Assembly (NCBI GenBank): GCA_035285545.1
Contig: JAYKGY010000104.1
Coordinates: 32,001 to 96,000, forward strand
Direction of reading: 5' to 3'
Source of the DNA: Snowella sp.
Lineage (GTDB): Bacteria; Cyanobacteriota; Cyanobacteriia; Cyanobacteriales; Microcystaceae
Length of the DNA stretch: 64,000 nt
Made by a program: the position numbers. This document shows, in pieces, positions 36,001 to 45,000 of this stretch; position 1 is the first letter of the stretch, and each line of letters begins with the position of its first letter.

Positions 36001-39000
36001 GGTATGGCGGCAGCGATCGGTGCCGGAGTTGGCTTCGTCACTGGCGGATTGGCAGAAACATTAGAACTGTTCAAAGGTTTCACAACCTTAAGAAATCCAG
36101 GTGTAGGTTCTGAAAGAGTTTATCGTTTTAAAACTTTACAGGAGATCATTGAAAAAAGAGGAGAACAAGCCACTGAAGAAACAGTAAGCCAAGTAACTTT
36201 AAGACCTAACTATAATACACAAGAGATTAAAAATATTCTCGCAGAAAAGTCTCCTCCTAGTTCGAGTAAGAATAATTTATTTCTGACTAGTGAGCCTGCC
36301 CAGGATTCCATACATCAGCTATCAGGTCAAAACATGGGTAATTACCAAAGCAATACATCTAGTAGTCGCCTGTCTGACTTGCTTGATAAGTATGCACCAA
36401 CTGAACAGCAGAGAAAGGCCATATTTAATATTTAATAATTTATAGAGATCGCAGATTGTAGATACTGGGTTAAGTGTCAAGGGGAGACAGGCAGGATGGG
36501 TTAGCATTGCGTAATCCATCAAAAATACTAAATCTACTTATCTAAATCCCCTTGAAAATAGGTAGGAGTTTGGTTTCTCAATTCGTTGATGATAGAACTG
36601 TTCAAGATTCAGTTGCAAGAATAAGACCCTGATAAATTTGCTCAATGGGAAAATTTAAATTAATGCTTTTTAATTCAATAATATCCCCTTGTTGATAATT
36701 AAAAATGAGCCATTCACCTAAATGGTTTTTATGATATAAATCCATTTCGATGCTGGTGGAACTCACTAATAAATAATCTTGTAAAACAGGGTTTTGACGA
36801 TATAGCCGAAACTTTCCTCCCCGATCATAGGCTTCCGTACTGGCTGATATAACCTCAATAATTAGACAAGGATAGGTAAAATATCGGGTTTGTTTTTTGT
36901 CCCTTTCATCACACGTTACGCTCGCATCAGGATAGGTATAATTATTTGTGCCAGCAATATTAATCTTAATATCTGAATTGCCCGTTATACAGCCGCGATC
37001 GCCGACATGAGCATCCAACATGGCTGTTAATCGAATTGCCAGACGACCATGATTAACACTGCCACCACTCATTGCATATACTTCGCCGTCAATATATTCG
37101 TGTTTTTCGGCCTGTGTTTCTTCCCAACGAAAATAATCTTCGGATGTTAAGGGGCGAAAATGATCTTGATTTGCAATCATAATGAGCAAAACGCATCCAA
37201 TCGATTTTAACTCCAGTTCTTCTCATTATCTCCATTTCTTGTTTATAGCGTGACATTCTTAGCCAACCCTTTGCCAAGCCAGCAGTGCCTTGATCACAAA
37301 AGCAGTAGTAATCGTCCGACTTCCATAAAATAAGATTGCTCGAATATTGCCAGATGCCCGACCCAACTCCATACGAATAAATCGACAACTCGGCCAAGAT
37401 TGATCGGATTGTTGACATTCTTGGAGATAACTCAATGCTTGAAAAATAAAGTCTTTATGGATTAAGGTTTTTCCCTCTGGATACGCAAAAGCCAAACCTA
37501 ATAACGCCAAAGCCGTACTTAACGGATCGGTAACCGCCTCAATTCCCCAACCGCTATCTTCTCGTTGAGATCCGACTAAAAAATTAACGCCTCGCGCCAA
37601 GCTAGGGGATAAGGGACGGACTAAAGCCAATAATCGTAAACACACATAAGTTCCGTAAAAAGGCCCGTGATACCAAGAGCTTTGCCAACTTCCATCGGCT
37701 TTTTGTTGGTTTTCTAAATAGGTCACACCCTTTTCAATGACCTGGCTAAATCGCTCTACATCGTAAAGAACCAACGCATACAGCAAATTGGCCATCACAT
37801 CAGGATCAGGGCCAGTTCCCCAAGCTAACCTAGCCCACTCATCTTGAAGTTGTTGTTCTGGAGTACGGTTATTTTTCGGAATAATCCAAGTCTCAAAGGA
37901 ACCATCAGGATAATAATTATCTTTAAGCAAAACAGCTAGGGGCAATTCACAGGTATTTTTTACCTCATCCTGTCGTTGCGATCGCAGCAAAACCTGCATA
38001 ATTTGGGCTAAATCATCTGCATCGGGAGGTAACTCAGGTAAATGGGGAAAATAGCCCCAGCCGCCTACTCCGGTCTGACGTTGACCACTCAGTAGATAGT
38101 TAGTTTCTTGTTCGATCAACGGTTGCCAGACTTCCCCAAAATGCTCTCTGAGATCCCACAAGGTATCAGCAATTAAGGCCCTAGCAAAAATATCGCCCTG
38201 ATGTTCTTCCTGAGGAGAGGTAAACCCCTGGGTCTGGGGAAACAACATCCGATGAGCCGCCTCTGCAAATCCCTGTTGTCCCTGAACTGCCAAAAATTGC
38301 AAACTTTTTTCTAAGCAATTTTGGAGACGGATTTCCGAAAAATTTTGAGGAGAAGGCAACGTAGAAACCATAGTCAAACGGTATAAAGCAGGGAATTTGG
38401 ACGTTATTTTAGATAGCTTTCGGTAGCTTAAAGGCTAAATCTTCAGCGGTGAGCGGTTCAAATCCTTTATCAATAAAACCTAAACTTTTAAGCCCCTTAG
38501 GTTTTTGTCCTAAAATAGCATTCTCATAAAACATTATTTTGGTATAAAAATCATCTTCAACTTCAAAAATTTCTAATTGATTAGGATACTGATGATGATC
38601 CCAATGATAATATCTTAAAGGACTGACTTTTGGAATCATTAAGCCTGCTAAGACAACCCTTTCTGTGTCAGATTGATTGGGAGGAGAGCAGTGAAATAAG
38701 CGAGTATTATAAACAACGGCTTGGCCAGCTTTCATTGGCAATGCTGTTAAGTATTTTTCCTCAATAACTGGTAATAGATGCCGATAGGGAAACTCATTGA
38801 GTCCTCCCCTGGGCTGAGTATTAAGGTGATGACTCCCTGGGACTAAGTGGAGACAACCATTAAACGGCTGTACATCAATCAGAGGACACCAAATTCCCAG
38901 GGATTGAAATCGACTTTCATCGGTAAAAGACCAATCCTGGTGCATCTGGACTTGACTATCCGTTCGGGCTGCTTTTTTGACAACAAAATTCCAAAAACAT

Positions 39001-42000: not shown

Positions 42001-45000
42001 CCACGGTGAAGAAGGTAACGCCTGGGTAAAAGAAAAAACGCCTTGCTCAAATAACGCATTCGGCATTCCGATCCAGGCTTTGAATTGATCAAACTGGTTG
42101 GTTTGGCGGAGGCAGGGCCCATAGGACGTTGAGCGGTCTAAGGTCGTGGAGAGAACAACTTGGGAGTCAGCTTTAACAGTCAACAACTCCCGATGCACAT
42201 CGGAAAAATAATTGATATCAAACTCAGATAAAAAAGACTCGAAAGTCCCTTGTCTGTAAGTAAATTTAGGGTTGACTAAGTTTAAGCAATCTTCAAGCTG
42301 CTGTCGTTGAGAATAAATATCGGTAATGGCAGTCTTCATTAGATTCTTCTTCTTGATTTCAGAATTTAGCACCCTATTAAAATTACAAATTTTCTTTTTA
42401 AACACCAGTAAAGTTTGCAATTTTAAGTAGAAAGTTAATTTTTTAAATTTTCAAACAGCCAATGGATGAACGAATAGATCAATGGGTCAAAACGCAATTA
42501 GAGTGGTGGTATTGGTTATCCTGACTGGATTTGGATAAGCCGCTACCCCACCCTGGAGAAAAATTAGCCTTGAATTCTAAGCGTTAATGGGTTAAGTGTT
42601 AGTCGAGGTTTAATTTCGCCATTGAACCCCCGCAGAGAAACGAGTACCCGGTTCTGCAACGACAGTCCCTAAGTCAAATTGGCTTGTAGAATTGGTTCCC
42701 ACTAAATCAATGGAAAGATTCGGGATAGGAAAGAAGCGCACACCCGCACTCCAAACGGTTCGTTCCCCTGTAACTAAAGGGGTGACTTCCGCAATCAATT
42801 GGGTAAAGGAATTCAATTGATAATTAGCACCTAAACCAATGCCAACAGGGGTATTTCCACCACTAATGGCAGCTTTGGGGGAAAATAGGACGGCCCATTG
42901 AGGATTAATTTCATACATCATGGGAAATTCAACCATCATGTAACCTTGTTTGTTGCCCCATTCGCGTCCAAAGGTTAATCTTCCCGTAATGGAAAACGGA
43001 TCGCCATCGAGTTGATTTAACAGGACTAATTTTCCACCTGCTCGCCATTGGGTATCAGTTCCCAGACGAGTTTCAATCACAGTAGAGGTATCAAAGCCAC
43101 CAATGGAAGCGATCGCGACTTCAAACTGGTAATCTTGGAGAAAACTGTAGAAAAATCGGCCGCCAATACTGCCTTCTGAGTCCCCTGCTACCCGAAACCC
43201 AAAATCATCCATTGGGAGAATATAGGGCGTTGTTAGGGTAAACCAATCAAACAAGAGTTTTTGATTGCGATCGCTTAAAATAATATCCTCCCGTTTTTCC
43301 TTAGCGGAGGGAACTATAATAAAACTACCCCCTAACAAGATTTCGTTGCTAGCAGTCGGTAGGGTCAAAATACCAGTCGTGGGCGTTCCCCCAAAGGAAT
43401 TCGTTACATGCAATTCAATCGCGATCGCCTTATTGAAGGCATAGGTGCCACCAGCAGACCAGAGGACTTTTTGGAAAAACTCACGGGACGGGCTAACCGC
43501 ATTATTTCCTGAGCCAAAGGGGACTACTGTATTGGCATAAACCGAAAATTCCGGTAAAATCTGCCAACTTAAGCCTGCACCCACATTGAAAATGGTGCCA
43601 AAGAAAGGAACCCCATTGAGATTATTCGAGAAAATATTAACCCCAGGCGTAATCGTTGCCTGTAATTCTTCACTGAAATTGTAGGAGATCGGAACCTGTA
43701 TCGAACCCGCGATCGTATTACTGATGGTTGGAGACTCCTGATTGTTATATAAACCGGGGCCGCTATAAATTTGAAAATGTTCTAACGCCCCTAAAATCCC
43801 TAAAGACCAATTTTCATCTTGATAAAAACGGTATTTAATATTAGGCCCCATCGCTTGATATTGTTGCTCAATAAATTCACCATTCACCTGGTTATAGGTC
43901 GGATCATCATTTAACATCCAAGCCCAGCCCACTTGCAGATCATCCGTCAAGCCCCAATCACTGTAGGTATAGTAAGTTTGATTTCCCGTACCTTGACCCC
44001 CAAGAGTTTGGGTTTCACTAAAACTCGCAATTGAGTCACCCGCTTTAAGCTGATTCGCCGTATTCAGATGGAGTAAACGGATTGGTTGTCGATACAAGGG
44101 GGTTTCAATCTCAGGAGCCACCGTTTCCACTATTGGCTGAGTAGGGGGTGAGTTTTCTTCCGTTGATTGGGGAGTTGATTCTGACGATTCTGGGGAAAGG
44201 GGCGTTAAAGGCGAATTTTCAGAAGAATTTTCAACAGCGTTTTCGGGAACAACTGGAATTGACGCTTCATTCATCGCTTGGGCAAGTTCTGGGCTTGAGG
44301 CTTGAACTGGGAGAGAACTTTCAACAGAATGAGGGGTAGGAGCTAAAGTAGAAGATTGCTGCTGAGCAAACTTGATGGGAGAGGCGGTCAGGTTTGAAGC
44401 GACAGATTTAACCAACGCTGAGGTTTTAGAATCTTCAATTTTTACAGAATTGTCCGCAACGTCAGTAACCACAGAACCAATGGTTTGAGCATTCTCCCCA
44501 GAAGTTTGGGTGACATCCGTTGTAGCAGGTGTAGCAGAAGTCGTATCCTGACCCGTAATCGTTGATGAGGCGAGGAGCGGTTCATGGGAAGACGAAGATT
44601 CCGTTGAAATACTGGGATTTTGGCTTAATAATTGATGTTTAGCTGCTTTGGGAATGTCGGCTTGAGTGAGGCGAAATCCGCCTTGGCGGGGCAATATTTG
44701 CCAGTTTTGCTGATCGGTTTCAATCACAATTTCGATAACAGCAGGCTGATCGGTAACTTGGTTGACTTGAACGTTTTTGAGAGAGGAGTCCGTTGCCGTT
44801 GAGTCTTGATAAACCCTAAATTGTTGATCTAGTAAGGTCTCATTAAGGGTTAGATGAACTTTACCCAATTCTTTTTGGGTATCCATTAGCACTTTTGCAT
44901 CATTTCCGCTGTTATAAACCCATAGCGTATTATCTCGAACGTAAATGGAGTGTAAGACGGTTAACGGTGATGAAGCTGATAGGGAGGCAAGCTTGGCTTG

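What a model noticed while it worked through the whole genome (the two positions that open the first line are those of the whole stretch)
37259..42339. Cryptic ABBA (DMATS-type) prenyltransferase family in a conserved seven-gene cassette
g02649 (C104:71714-72739, 341 aa), which has no Pfam, NCBIfam, Swiss-Prot or PDB sequence match, is predicted with high confidence to have the ABBA barrel of bacterial/fungal indole prenyltransferases and keeps strand motifs R-x-K-x-Y-x-R, D-x-K-x-D and R-x-N-x-Y of the kind that line the diphosphate site in that fold. It sits in a cassette (g02646-g02652: squalene-hopene-cyclase-like protein with a DxDD motif, PhyH dioxygenase, small CGKC protein, the prenyltransferase, a Gly-rich 226-aa protein, a conserved 51-aa protein, a 220-aa protein) whose order is kept in Westiellopsis prolifica and a Leptolyngbyales MAG and partly in a Thermoanaerobaculia MAG: a candidate cluster for a prenylated/t [...]
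Evidence so far: AlphaFold2 on a 25-sequence alignment: mean pLDDT 94.8, pTM 0.93. Foldseek PDB: 130 hits at E<=1e-3, best AnaPT, PriB, FunA, MpnD, 5-/6-DMATS, IptA, TleC, TM 0.69-0.76, 12-16% identity. Sequence level: Pfam 0 families at E<=1; phmmer and a 25-sequence profile find no prenyltransferase in PDB sequences at E<=1; 2 of 25 relatives give a weak Trp_DMAT match, best E 1.7e-4. Family: 34 proteins at E<=1e-3 among 5.8 billion, none named; invariant Y153 R210 K212 Y214 R216 D269 K271 D273 R329 N331 Y333. Absent from 400 sampled Cyanobacteriota and from 5 other Snowella genomes. tblastn: all seven genes in the same order at 45-72% identity in L343 and L344; prenyltransferase, two PhyH, cyclase-like, g [...]
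(Added by a program. Inside this text positions count along the whole contig: contig position 32,001 is position 1 of the stretch shown here. "Call 12" and the like, gene names such as g00115 and contig names such as C1 are that model's own, and its searches are not shown. The text may have been shortened before it was handed on; [...] marks where a part breaks off. The agent that wrote the report below was given it as the finding of a first reader that could run no searches.)

Follow-up and report, generated by a model that had tools for sequence, protein, structure and literature searches.

The report
Split prenyltransferase–cyclase pair with glycine-rich protein partner
The hidden prenyltransferase is real, but it most likely attaches a terpene to the single tryptophan of a neighbouring glycine-rich protein, which a second enzyme then cyclises, in a gene set that travels through several bacterial phyla with a giant toxin-like shell protein.

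Summary
The 341-aa ORF (39714-40739, minus strand) has no Pfam, NCBIfam or PDB sequence match. It folds with pLDDT 95.5 into an ABBA barrel closest to DMATS-type indole prenyltransferases (Z 23-27.7).

The interpretation needs revising.
1. The family is not tiny: 475 representative clusters at E<=1e-3.
2. 20 of the best 150 are fusions to an MstE-like monodomain class II terpene cyclase. A review describes this architecture for NctPC, which geranylgeranylates a tryptophan of a ribosomal peptide and cyclises the chain.
3. The supposedly missing scaffold is probably the adjacent Gly-rich protein. It accompanies the prenyltransferase in 55 of 55 assessable loci, folds as a polyproline-II helix bundle (pLDDT 94.6), and its only invariant non-glycine residue is one Trp (C-x-W).
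4. The 2705-aa Rhs protein at 28318-36435 is homologous to mosquito SGS1 (E 6e-73) and lies beside the cassette in 27 of 72 loci. In two cyanobacteria the cassette sits between contractile-injection-system baseplate genes and eCIS_core-domain genes.

Best reading, confidence 0.55: ribosomal-protein Trp terpenylation and cyclisation, not a small-molecule meroterpenoid pathway. Substrate, donor and product are untested. The primary NctPC paper could not be read.

The parts
39714..40739 (-). ABBA-fold (DMATS-like) prenyltransferase, 341 aa
   Evidence: AF2 gave pLDDT 95.5 and pTM 0.93 with five alpha-alpha-beta-beta repeats. Foldseek found 130 PDB hits at E<=1e-3. VIA gave Z 27.7 to 6-DMATS, 26.3 to FgaPT2, 17 to the NphB/AmbP1 type and 13-16 to cyanobactin prenyltransferases. 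Conserved residues on strands are R210/K212/Y214/R216, D269/K271/D273 and R329/N331/Y333. The protein is 41% identical over 324 aa (E 4e-84) to the N-terminal domain of P0038, a 652-aa prenyltransferase-cyclase fusion.
37259..38377 (-). Monodomain class II terpene cyclase-like protein, 372 aa, with DADD motif at residues 119-122
   Evidence: Pfam SQHop_cyclase_C scored 56.2 bits against a cutoff of 26.1. The TIGR01787 alignment covers residues 105-330 against profile positions 350-589 of 622. The best PDB sequence hits are the monodomain 8pak (2.7e-15) and 8paj, followed by squalene-hopene cyclase (SHC, 1.8e-14); DADD aligns with DADS of 8pak. The motif D[AV]DD is present in 18 of 18 stand-alone orthologues.
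38409..39347 (-). PhyH-family 2OG/Fe(II) oxygenase. The real start is probably the Met near 39254, giving about 281 aa like its orthologues
   Evidence: Pfam PhyH scored 70.7 bits against a cutoff of 22. H-x-D and a distal His are visible in the translation. There are one or two paralogues in the related loci. The domain is fused behind the prenyltransferase and cyclase domains in P0096.
39304..39669 (-). Small CxxC (CGKC) protein with a hydrophobic C-terminal segment; candidate thiol-disulfide protein
   Evidence: It is conserved next to the prenyltransferase, with a profile hit in 42 of 72 loci. No Pfam family matched at E<=1 for 12 orthologues. In cyclase-less variant loci a MauE-family membrane protein (E about 1e-19 to 1e-20) sits beside the prenyltransferase instead.
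40742..41422 (-). Gly-rich protein, 226 aa: polyproline-II helix bundle with a single invariant Trp (W37, context C-D-W-K-S-A-C). Proposed prenyl acceptor
   Evidence: AF2 gave pLDDT 94.6 and pTM 0.81. VIA gave Z 13.1, rmsd 1.0 A over 81/81 residues to snow flea antifreeze protein 2pne, and Z 10.7 to 7jjv; the next hit is Z 3.3. In a 31-sequence alignment the invariant columns are 23 Gly plus W37, and C35 is kept in >=90%. A profile hit is present in 55 of 69 prenyltransferase-bearing loci, and the 14 without have at most 237 nt upstream of the prenyltransferase gene.
41483..41638 (-). 51-aa protein, a stand-alone copy of a roughly 45-aa beta-rich module
   Evidence: It is conserved in cyanobacterial loci. 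The p51 profile hits small ORFs in L022, L026, L027, L034 and L045; three of these (L026, L027, L034) are also hit by the p220 profile. The same module is fused to the N-terminus of the Gly-rich protein in L035 and L040 (50% identity over 48 aa, E 1e-8). Direct BLAST of the window's p51 against a Bacteroidota p220-type protein found nothing.
41677..42339 (-). p220 protein of unknown family; its C-terminus carries the p51-like module
   Evidence: A profile hit is present in 46 of 72 loci, always upstream of the Gly-rich gene. No Pfam or NCBIfam match. The Atlas lists only unnamed clusters, plus a 389-aa 'collagen family' cluster that aligns at TM 0.66.
28318..36435 (+). Giant 2705-aa Rhs/YD-repeat protein, homologous to mosquito SGS1; conserved partner of the cassette
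   Evidence: Pfam found DUF6443 and RHS_repeat. phmmer against PDB hit SGS1 8fjp at E 6.3e-73 in three stretches (query 13-261, 1210-2114, 2196-2539), and SGS4 9on3 at 5.9e-58. A hydrophobic Gly/Ala-rich C-terminal stretch follows the Rhs-core-like end. Homologues at 32-64% identity lie directly downstream of the cyclase/PhyH genes; 27 of 72 loci have one.

Best explanation
The cassette is a post-translational terpenylation pathway for a ribosomally made protein, not a small-molecule pathway.

Proposed steps, all inferred:
1. The ABBA prenyltransferase transfers a long prenyl chain to the single invariant tryptophan (W37, in a Cys-x-Trp-...-Cys loop) of the adjacent 226-aa Gly-rich polyproline-II-bundle protein. 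The donor is probably geranylgeranyl diphosphate from housekeeping synthases.
2. The separate MstE-like monodomain class II cyclase protonates the distal double bond through its DxDD acid and closes the attached chain into a polycyclic, sterol-like group.
3. The PhyH oxygenase hydroxylates the product.
4. The CxxC membrane protein handles the cysteines that flank the Trp.
5. p220 and the 51-aa module act as a docking or chaperone element for the Gly-rich protein.
6. The lipidated protein then works with the neighbouring SGS1/Tc-like Rhs shell protein, whose C-terminal hydrophobic segment looks like a membrane-inserting cargo. In some cyanobacteria the partner would instead be a contractile injection system.

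Shown here: the folds, the homologies, the fusions, the gene linkage and the conservation pattern.
Inferred: the acceptor, the donor length, the order of steps and the link to the giant protein's function.
For: Prenyltransferase:
- The ABBA fold is closest to DMATS enzymes.
- Lys/Arg/Tyr ladders are conserved on barrel strands, with K212 and K271 invariant in 120 sequences.
- 18 of 120 members match Trp_DMAT / TIGR03429, best E 1.6e-6, and no other family recurs.

Link to the cyclase:
- 20 of the 150 best representatives are 619-921-aa fusions. 12 of the 14 scanned proteins were such fusions, and 11 of those 12 show SQHop_cyclase_C or TED-like C-domains; one also carries PhyH.
- The fusion C-domain hits 8paj at 1e-23 and MstE at 5e-16.
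- The acid motif is D[AV]DD in 18/18 split cyclases. It is D-x-D-[ST] in 19 of 20 fused ones; the exception is P0102.

Precedent:
- A review (passages read) states that NctPC has an ABBA-fold P domain fused to an MstE-like C domain. It puts C20 on a tryptophan and then cyclises the chain.

Acceptor:
- A Gly-rich-profile hit occurs in 55 of 69 prenyltransferase-bearing loci.
- All 14 misses have at most 237 nt of sequence upstream of the prenyltransferase gene.
- The gene is upstream and co-directional except in L016.
- The pairing persists where the cyclase, PhyH and giant protein are replaced by P450, methyltransferase, GT34 glycosyltransferase, radical SAM or MauE genes.
- W37 is the only invariant non-Gly column in 31 sequences.
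- In one search, 38 of 39 directly upstream Gly-rich ORFs have C-x-W and one has S-D-W. 36 of the 39 contain exactly one Trp.

Other points:
- Donor: two polyprenyl synthases are present elsewhere in the genome.
- In Westiellopsis (L006) a cholesterol-oxidase-type FAD enzyme (Chol_subst-bind, E 2e-106) sits between the cyclase and the giant gene, which fits a sterol-like product.
Against: - No experiment or direct computation shows that the Gly-rich protein is modified.
- An invariant Trp could be structural.
- The Gly-rich protein is predicted to be a compact folded protein, unlike the short peptides that known peptide prenyltransferases use.
- A JACS paper (passage read) says that in the Chekan/Piel report macrocyclisation preceded lanthipeptide prenylation. 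The characterised relatives therefore act on lanthipeptides, not on such a protein.
- I could not obtain the NctPC sequence or read the primary paper, so membership of NctPC in this sequence family is unproven.
- No prenyl diphosphate synthase lies in the cassette.
- The window protein itself fails the curated DMATS models.
- In the window the giant gene is convergent and separated by a Uma2 gene, and 42 of the 69 prenyltransferase-bearing loci show no giant gene. Many of these are too short to tell, but 14 have more than 5 kb downstream.
Confidence: 0.55

Rival explanations
1. Small-molecule meroterpenoid or indole-terpenoid pathway. The prenyltransferase alkylates a diffusible aromatic metabolite, the cyclase and PhyH tailor it, and the Gly-rich, p51 and p220 proteins are unrelated passengers or carriers.
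For: The closest solved structures all act on small molecules such as Trp, indolactam and diketopiperazines. MstE, a homologue of the cyclase family, is described in the title of Moosmann et al. 2020 as assembling isoprenoid scaffolds (seen only in a reference list). Tailoring oxygenases are typical of such clusters.
Against: No gene for an aromatic scaffold, NRPS, PKS or isonitrile synthase was seen in the cassette in any of the loci mapped. The only partners kept with the prenyltransferase when all the tailoring enzymes change are the Gly-rich protein and p220. The Gly-rich protein keeps a single invariant Trp. The published fusion enzyme of this architecture modifies a ribosomal peptide.
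Confidence: 0.2
2. The pathway is post-translational, but the acceptor is a different protein: the giant Rhs/SGS1-like protein, p220, or an unrecognised short peptide. The Gly-rich protein would then be a structural partner.
For: The giant protein is linked in 27 of 72 loci. The p51-like module occurs free, at the end of p220, and fused to the Gly-rich protein, as a recognition element might. Characterised relatives use lanthipeptide precursors.
Against: The giant gene is absent from 14 loci that have more than 5 kb downstream of the prenyltransferase. p51 has no Trp, and the Trp of cyanobacterial p220 is not kept in Bacteroidota. No LanM-like gene appeared among the 26 flanking proteins scanned, though not every ORF was scanned.
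Confidence: 0.12
3. The ABBA-fold protein is not catalytic. It would be a binding or scaffold barrel, and the cassette would encode only structural parts of a toxin or injection apparatus.
For: The window protein fails all curated prenyltransferase models. The cassette sits next to toxin-like and injection-system genes.
Against: The Arg/Lys/Tyr ladders are strongly conserved over 120 diverse sequences, with two invariant Lys. The domain is repeatedly fused to a cyclase domain that keeps its acid motif. It is co-conserved with oxygenases, P450s and methyltransferases.
Confidence: 0.04

Closest known systems
NctPC-type bifunctional prenyltransferase-cyclase RiPP maturases (Hubrich et al., Chem 2024). 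Known to me only through passages of the review PMC13290415 and citing papers; the primary paper is not held
   Same: An ABBA-fold prenyltransferase is paired with an MstE-like monodomain class II cyclase. The acceptor is a tryptophan of a ribosomal product. Relatives of the window protein have exactly this fused architecture.
   Different: In the window the two activities are separate genes. The likely acceptor is a folded 226-aa polyproline-II-bundle protein rather than a lanthipeptide. The cassette also carries p220, p51, a CxxC protein and PhyH, and is linked to a giant Rhs protein. Sequence relatedness to NctPC itself could not be tested.
DMATS-type indole prenyltransferases (6-DMATS 6zry, TleC, MpnD, FgaPT2, CymD, AnaPT)
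   Same: Best structural matches: Z 23.1-27.7 over 311-330 aligned residues. 18 of 120 family members give weak Trp_DMAT / TIGR03429 matches. The R-x-K-x-Y strand motif resembles the one I recall lining the diphosphate site in FgaPT2.
   Different: Sequence identity is 7-15%. The window protein matches neither curated model. At 341 aa it is shorter than the fungal enzymes. The genomic context points to a protein acceptor rather than a small molecule.
Cyanobactin F-family peptide prenyltransferases (PatF 4bg2, PagF 5tty, DciF 9lwv)
   Same: ABBA barrel; they act on ribosomal peptides.
   Different: They are structurally more distant (Z 13.1-16.0) than the DMATS type. None of 120 members hit any NCBIfam model other than TIGR03429, so no cyanobactin-prenyltransferase model was hit. 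By the review's account these enzymes use short C5-C10 donors.
MstE and other monodomain class II terpene cyclases (PDB 6sbb, 8pak, 8paj)
   Same: A single alpha/alpha-barrel domain of about 360-370 aa with an Asp-rich acid motif. The window cyclase hits 8pak at 2.7e-15, and the fused relatives hit MstE at 5e-16.
   Different: The window cyclase keeps a full D-x-D-D, whereas the fused forms and 8pak have D-x-D-S/T. The window protein did not reach MstE at E<=1 by phmmer.
Mosquito SGS1 and the Tc-toxin BC Rhs/YD cocoon
   Same: The giant neighbour aligns with SGS1 over three stretches spanning SGS1 residues 373-2825, E 6.3e-73. Like SGS1 as described in PMC9935623 (passages read), it has a hydrophobic helix-prone C-terminal stretch after the Rhs core.
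   Different: It is bacterial, 2705 aa, and carries DUF6443. Its linkage to a terpenylation cassette did not turn up in my searches.
Springtail (snow flea) antifreeze proteins, polyproline-II helix bundles
   Same: The Gly-rich protein's core superposes on 2pne at Z 13.1, rmsd 1.0 A, 81/81 residues, 44% identity.
   Different: It is three times larger, has added beta hairpins, conserved Cys pairs and the invariant Trp, and is bacterial. Nothing here shows ice binding.

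Membership tests
ABBA (PT-barrel) aromatic prenyltransferase superfamily | Five alpha-alpha-beta-beta repeats forming a 10-stranded antiparallel barrel | tested here: met
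   The secondary-structure order is HH-EE five times at pLDDT 95.5. All 19 PDB representatives at Z>=8 are ABBA prenyltransferases. Foldseek found 130 hits at E<=1e-3.
ABBA (PT-barrel) aromatic prenyltransferase superfamily | Basic and Tyr residues lining the barrel that bind the prenyl diphosphate | tested here: inconclusive
   R210/K212/Y214/R216, K271 and R329/N331/Y333 sit at alternating positions of strands 6, 8 and 10 and are conserved in >=90% of 120 sequences, with K212 and K271 invariant.
DMATS family (Pfam Trp_DMAT PF11991 / NCBIfam TIGR03429) | Match to the curated sequence model | tested here: not met
   The window protein has no hit at E<=0.1 in Pfam or E<=1 in NCBIfam. 18 of 120 relatives give weak hits, best E 1.7e-6 and 1.6e-6. 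This makes it a distant branch, not a member by the curated models.
NctPC-type prenyltransferase-cyclase RiPP maturases | ABBA-fold P domain together with an MstE-like C domain | tested here: met
   Both are present as neighbouring genes in the window. They are fused in 20 of the 150 best relatives and in 19 of 69 prenyltransferase-bearing loci.
NctPC-type prenyltransferase-cyclase RiPP maturases | Both domains in one polypeptide | tested here: not met
   In the window the two genes are separated by the CGKC and PhyH genes.
NctPC-type prenyltransferase-cyclase RiPP maturases | Tryptophan of a ribosomal precursor as acceptor | tested here: inconclusive
   There is a universal Gly-rich neighbour with one invariant Trp, but no direct evidence of modification.
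NctPC-type prenyltransferase-cyclase RiPP maturases | Sequence homology to NctPC itself | not testable with these tools
   The primary paper and the sequence are not held.
Class II terpene cyclases (SHC/MstE superfamily) | Homology to the squalene-hopene cyclase alpha/alpha barrel | tested here: met
   Pfam SQHop_cyclase_C scored 56.2 bits against a cutoff of 26.1. PDB hits: 8pak 2.7e-15 and SHC 1.8e-14.
Class II terpene cyclases (SHC/MstE superfamily) | D-x-D-D general-acid motif | tested here: met
   DADD lies at residues 119-122. D[AV]DD is present in 18 of 18 stand-alone orthologues and aligns with DADS of the monodomain cyclase 8pak. The NCBIfam alignment places it near profile positions 360-380 of 622. 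That this is the position of the SHC motif is recalled, not tested.
Class II terpene cyclases (SHC/MstE superfamily) | Beta-gamma didomain architecture of canonical enzymes | tested here: not met
   The protein has 372 aa and matches only the C-terminal half of the 622-position model. It is monodomain, like 8pak, 8paj and MstE.
Rhs/YD cocoon proteins (SGS1, Tc BC) | Rhs/YD repeats and homology to a solved cocoon | tested here: met
   RHS_repeat scored 35.7 bits against a cutoff of 22, and DUF6443 scored 45.1 bits. SGS1 8fjp hit at E 6.3e-73 over three stretches.
Polyproline-II helix bundle proteins (springtail antifreeze type) | Bundle of Gly-rich PPII helices | tested here: met
   The model has pLDDT 94.6. 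VIA gave Z 13.1 with rmsd 1.0 A over 81/81 residues to 2pne, and Z 10.7 to 7jjv, against 3.3 for the next hit.

The most novel reading that the evidence does not exclude
This would be a previously unrecognised kind of protein lipidation. A folded polyproline-II-bundle protein receives a C20 terpene on its single tryptophan. A dedicated class II cyclase then turns the chain into a sterol-like polycyclic anchor. The lipidated protein serves as the membrane-engaging partner of SGS1/Tc-like Rhs cocoons, or of contractile injection systems, across Cyanobacteriota, Bacteroidota and other phyla. In effect, bacteria would be making a sterol-like anchored accessory protein for toxin delivery.
Probability: 0.3. 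Interest if true: 0.9.

Novelty: new variant of a known kind. Interest (0 to 1): 0.7.

Why it matters
- Cyclised terpene modifications of ribosomal products were first reported only in 2024, on peptides. This is according to the citing papers I could read.
- If the acceptor here is a folded 220-aa protein, the chemistry extends from peptides to proteins. It would also give a genetically encoded way to attach a sterol-like group to a defined Trp.
- The family is widespread (475 clusters at 50% identity) and invisible to Pfam and NCBIfam, so many such cassettes are currently annotated as hypothetical.
- The conserved linkage to full-length bacterial homologues of mosquito SGS1, and to injection-system genes, suggests a function in cell-cell antagonism or membrane attack. 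It also provides bacterial relatives for a mosquito protein that the literature considers horizontally acquired.

Tried and rejected
- Complex prediction of the prenyltransferase with the Gly-rich protein returned no verdict (score 0.00, mark 0.32). It is neither support nor evidence against.
- The look-up of sequencing runs listed no RNA holder, so nothing can be said on expression.
- The search for related loci with the full 34-sequence alignment failed for lack of a conserved stretch. A 14-sequence subset worked.
- The primary paper (Hubrich et al. 2024, PMC11484575 / PMID 39429465) is not held. Searches for 8PAK/8PAJ, NctPC, steromaze and NctA gave only a review and citing papers, so what the 8pak and 8paj entries come from is unknown to me.
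- Pfam at E<=1 gave no family for 12 CGKC orthologues. The only hint was a thioredoxin match at E 0.21 in one of them, so the thiol-disulfide role rests on the CxxC motif and on the MauE substitution.
- Direct BLAST of the window's 51-aa protein against a Bacteroidota p220-type protein found nothing. The module relationship rests on profile hits to intermediates and on one fusion alignment.
- Foldseek superpositions of the Gly-rich model were poor (TM 0.17, rmsd 27 A). The VIA alignment is the one used.
- Earlier findings of this scan: three look-ups returned nothing.
- An ice-binding role for the Gly-rich protein was considered because of its antifreeze-like core. It was not pursued, as nothing in the gene context speaks for it.

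Full report
**What is in the window.** Seven co-directional ORFs on the minus strand lie between 37259 and 42420, with gaps of 2-60 nt.
- A 372-aa protein matches SQHop_cyclase_C (56.2 bits against a cutoff of 26.1).
- A PhyH oxygenase scores 70.7 bits.
- A 121-aa protein carries a CGKC motif.
- The 341-aa protein in question follows.
- Next is a 226-aa Gly-rich protein, then a 51-aa protein.
- Last is a 220-247-aa protein, here called p220.

The last five have no Pfam hit at E<=0.1 and no meaningful NCBIfam hit.

**The fold claim holds.**
- The word-indexed search returned the same 34 proteins and the same invariant residues.
- AlphaFold2 on that alignment gave pLDDT 95.5 and pTM 0.93, with five helix-helix-strand-strand repeats.
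- Foldseek reproduced 130 PDB hits at E<=1e-3, led by AnaPT, FunA, AtaPT, PriB and 5-DMATS.
- A search that does not depend on Foldseek (VIA, 48,161 chains) gave three clean tiers:
  - 12 DMATS-type enzymes at Z 23.1-27.7.
  - NphB, AmbP1, EpzP and CloQ at Z 16.3-17.1.
  - Cyanobactin prenyltransferases PatF, PagF and DciF at Z 13.1-16.0.
  - The next hit is an unrelated barrel at Z 7.2.
- A profile of the family finds no prenyltransferase among PDB sequences at E<=10.
- The sequence link is not quite absent. 18 of 120 diverse members hit Pfam Trp_DMAT and NCBIfam TIGR03429 (best E 1.7e-6 and 1.6e-6), and no other family recurs.
- In those 120 sequences K212 and K271 are invariant. R210, Y214, R216, D269, D273, R329, N331 and Y333 are kept in at least 90%.

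**The family is large and often fused to a cyclase.**
- The exhaustive profile search finds 475 representative clusters at E<=1e-3, of which 247 are at <=1e-30.
- Twenty of the 150 listed are 619-921 aa long.
- I scanned 14 of the listed proteins with Pfam. Twelve of them were such fusions, and 11 of those 12 carry SQHop_cyclase_C or TED-like matches behind the prenyltransferase domain. One (P0096) adds a PhyH domain.
- The fused C-domain hits the monodomain cyclases 8paj (1e-23) and 8pak, and MstE (5e-16).
- The window's separate cyclase hits 8pak best (2.7e-15), with its DADD aligned to DADS.
- D[AV]DD is present in 18 of 18 stand-alone orthologues. D-x-D-[ST] is present in 19 of 20 fused ones; the exception is P0102.
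- The window prenyltransferase is 41% identical over 324 aa (E 4e-84) to the N-domain of P0038, a 652-aa fusion. One member of P0038's cluster is annotated from a Pseudanabaenales cyanobacterium.

**What is in print.**
  - NctPC is fused to a cyclase domain resembling MstE.
  - It transfers geranylgeranyl to tryptophan and then cyclises the chain.
  - The review cites Hubrich et al., Chem 2024.
- That primary paper is not held.
- Citing papers add three points:
  - It reported the first cyclised C20 and C25 prenylations on RiPPs.
  - A product is called steromaze.
  - Macrocyclisation preceded lanthipeptide prenylation.
- The architecture is therefore known. Whether NctPC belongs to this sequence family could not be tested.

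**Gene context.** I mapped 19 genome loci and 52 metagenome loci, which with the window makes 72.
- The order p220 - (small protein) - Gly-rich - prenyltransferase - CGKC - PhyH (one or two) - cyclase is kept in:
  - four cyanobacterial genomes;
  - twelve Bacteroidota genomes (Aquimarina, Flavobacterium, Mucilaginibacter, a Saprospiraceae MAG and an unclassified Bacteroidota MAG).
  - It is rearranged in a Thermoanaerobaculia MAG.
- Loci with the fused enzyme have the same neighbours.
- Profile searches over all six frames give these counts:

| Profile | Loci with a hit |
|---|---|
| Prenyltransferase | 69 of 72 |
| Cyclase | 48 of those 69 (19 fused, 29 split) |
| Gly-rich protein | 55 |
| p220 | 46 |
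| CGKC | 42 |
| PhyH | 37 |
| Giant protein | 27 |

**The Gly-rich protein is the constant partner.**
- All 14 prenyltransferase-bearing loci without a Gly-rich hit have at most 237 nt of sequence upstream of the prenyltransferase gene. Every locus that can be judged therefore has the Gly-rich gene.
- It is upstream and co-directional except in L016, where two copies lie about 8.7 kb away.
- The pairing survives replacement of the tailoring set. Some loci have P450, methyltransferase and kinase genes. Others have a GT34 glycosyltransferase, a methyltransferase and a MauE-family membrane protein (E about 1e-19 to 1e-20) and no cyclase.
- In a 31-sequence alignment at 37-90% identity, the invariant columns are 23 glycines and one tryptophan, W37. 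C35 is kept in at least 90%.
- Among 39 Gly-rich ORFs found directly upstream, 38 have C-x-W and one has S-D-W. 36 of the 39 contain exactly one Trp.
- The protein is not disordered low complexity. AlphaFold2 gives pLDDT 94.6. Its core superposes on snow flea antifreeze protein at Z 13.1, rmsd 1.0 A over 81/81 residues, with the next unrelated hit at Z 3.3.

**The 51-aa protein and p220 share a module.**
- The p51 profile hits small ORFs in L022, L026, L027, L034 and L045. Three of these are also hit by the p220 profile.
- In L035 and L040 the module is fused to the N-terminus of the Gly-rich protein. The match is 50% identity over 48 aa, E 1e-8, to a Bacteroidota p220-type protein.
- Direct BLAST with the window's own p51 fails.
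- The protein Atlas shows p220-like structure inside a 389-aa cluster auto-named as a collagen family. This is a lead for a p220/Gly-rich fusion that I did not verify.

**The eighth member.**
- The 2705-aa ORF at 28318-36435 carries DUF6443 and RHS repeats. It is convergent with the cassette and separated from it by a Uma2 gene.
- It aligns with mosquito SGS1 (8fjp) at E 6.3e-73 in three stretches, covering SGS1 residues 373-606, 1339-2212 and 2482-2825.
- After the Rhs-core-like end it has a hydrophobic Gly/Ala-rich stretch. This resembles the encapsulated, helix-prone C-terminal moiety described for SGS1 (PMC9935623, passages read).
- Homologues at 32-64% identity start directly after the cyclase or PhyH gene in 26 other loci.
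- In two Leptolyngbyales-type cyanobacteria (L004, L005) the cassette instead lies between Baseplate_J and Tail_P2_I genes on one side and eCIS_core-domain proteins on the other.
- In Westiellopsis a cholesterol-oxidase-type enzyme sits between the cyclase and the giant gene.

**Reading.** The most economical explanation is a protein-directed version of the published prenyltransferase-cyclase chemistry, with the Gly-rich protein's Trp as acceptor.
- The small-molecule reading is weakened for two reasons. No scaffold gene was seen in any mapped locus. The only neighbours kept when the tailoring enzymes change are two proteins rather than enzymes.
- It is not excluded, because every solved structural neighbour acts on small molecules.
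- The acceptor, the donor length, the role of the CxxC and MauE proteins, and any cooperation with the giant protein are inferences.
- Two polyprenyl synthases elsewhere in the genome could supply the donor.
- The cassette is rare in the phylum: 2 of 401 sampled Cyanobacteriota genomes, one being the window's own and one a weak partial hit. Together with its spread over several phyla, this fits horizontal movement.

Noticed in passing
window 28318-36435 (+): A full-length bacterial homologue of mosquito SGS1: three aligned stretches spanning SGS1 residues 373-2825, E 6.3e-73. The SGS1 structure paper (passage read) says most bacterial homologues are much shorter and cover only part of the Rhs/YD domain. 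This cyanobacterial and Bacteroidota family may bear on the origin of the mosquito genes.
   Followed up: partly
window 36602-37189 (-): A Uma2-family putative restriction endonuclease gene (Pfam E 1.8e-34) sits between the cassette and the convergent giant gene. In other genomes the giant gene follows the cassette co-directionally, so the window shows a local rearrangement.
   Followed up: no
L004 4434-8071 and 14173-16818; L005 4355-7974 and 14238-16202: In two cyanobacterial genomes the cassette lies between Baseplate_J / Tail_P2_I genes and proteins with the eCIS_core domain. It is therefore inside or beside an extracellular contractile injection system locus.
   Followed up: partly
L006 14282-16354: In Westiellopsis a 690-aa cholesterol-oxidase-type FAD enzyme (Chol_subst-bind, E 2.4e-106) lies between the cyclase and the giant gene.
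   Followed up: no
L019 1388-1894, L021 317-748, L054 4247-4792: Cyclase-less variant loci carry a MauE-family membrane protein (E about 1e-19 to 1e-20) between the Gly-rich gene and the prenyltransferase, together with GT34-type glycosyltransferase and methyltransferase genes. This looks like a different tailoring set on the same core pair.
   Followed up: partly
window 40742-41422 (-): The Gly-rich protein's core is 44% identical over 81 superposed residues to snow flea antifreeze protein (Z 13.1). This is a bacterial polyproline-II bundle of this type. Whether it binds ice was not examined.
   Followed up: no
window 42610-45204 and 45450-46505 (-): Upstream neighbours are an 864-aa protein with a weak outer-membrane beta-barrel hint (E 0.077) and a TIGR03790-family protein (E 8.9e-84). 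Neither is conserved next to the cassette in other loci.
   Followed up: no
G246:C134:133804-133938: The only other hit among 400 sampled Cyanobacteriota is a 45-residue match (E 3.9e-4) inside a 1312-aa open frame. It is probably not a true family member.
   Followed up: no
L016 5918-8502: The Thermoanaerobaculia locus has a P450 and a B12-binding radical SAM enzyme between the PhyH genes and the cyclase, and two tandem Gly-rich paralogues.
   Followed up: no
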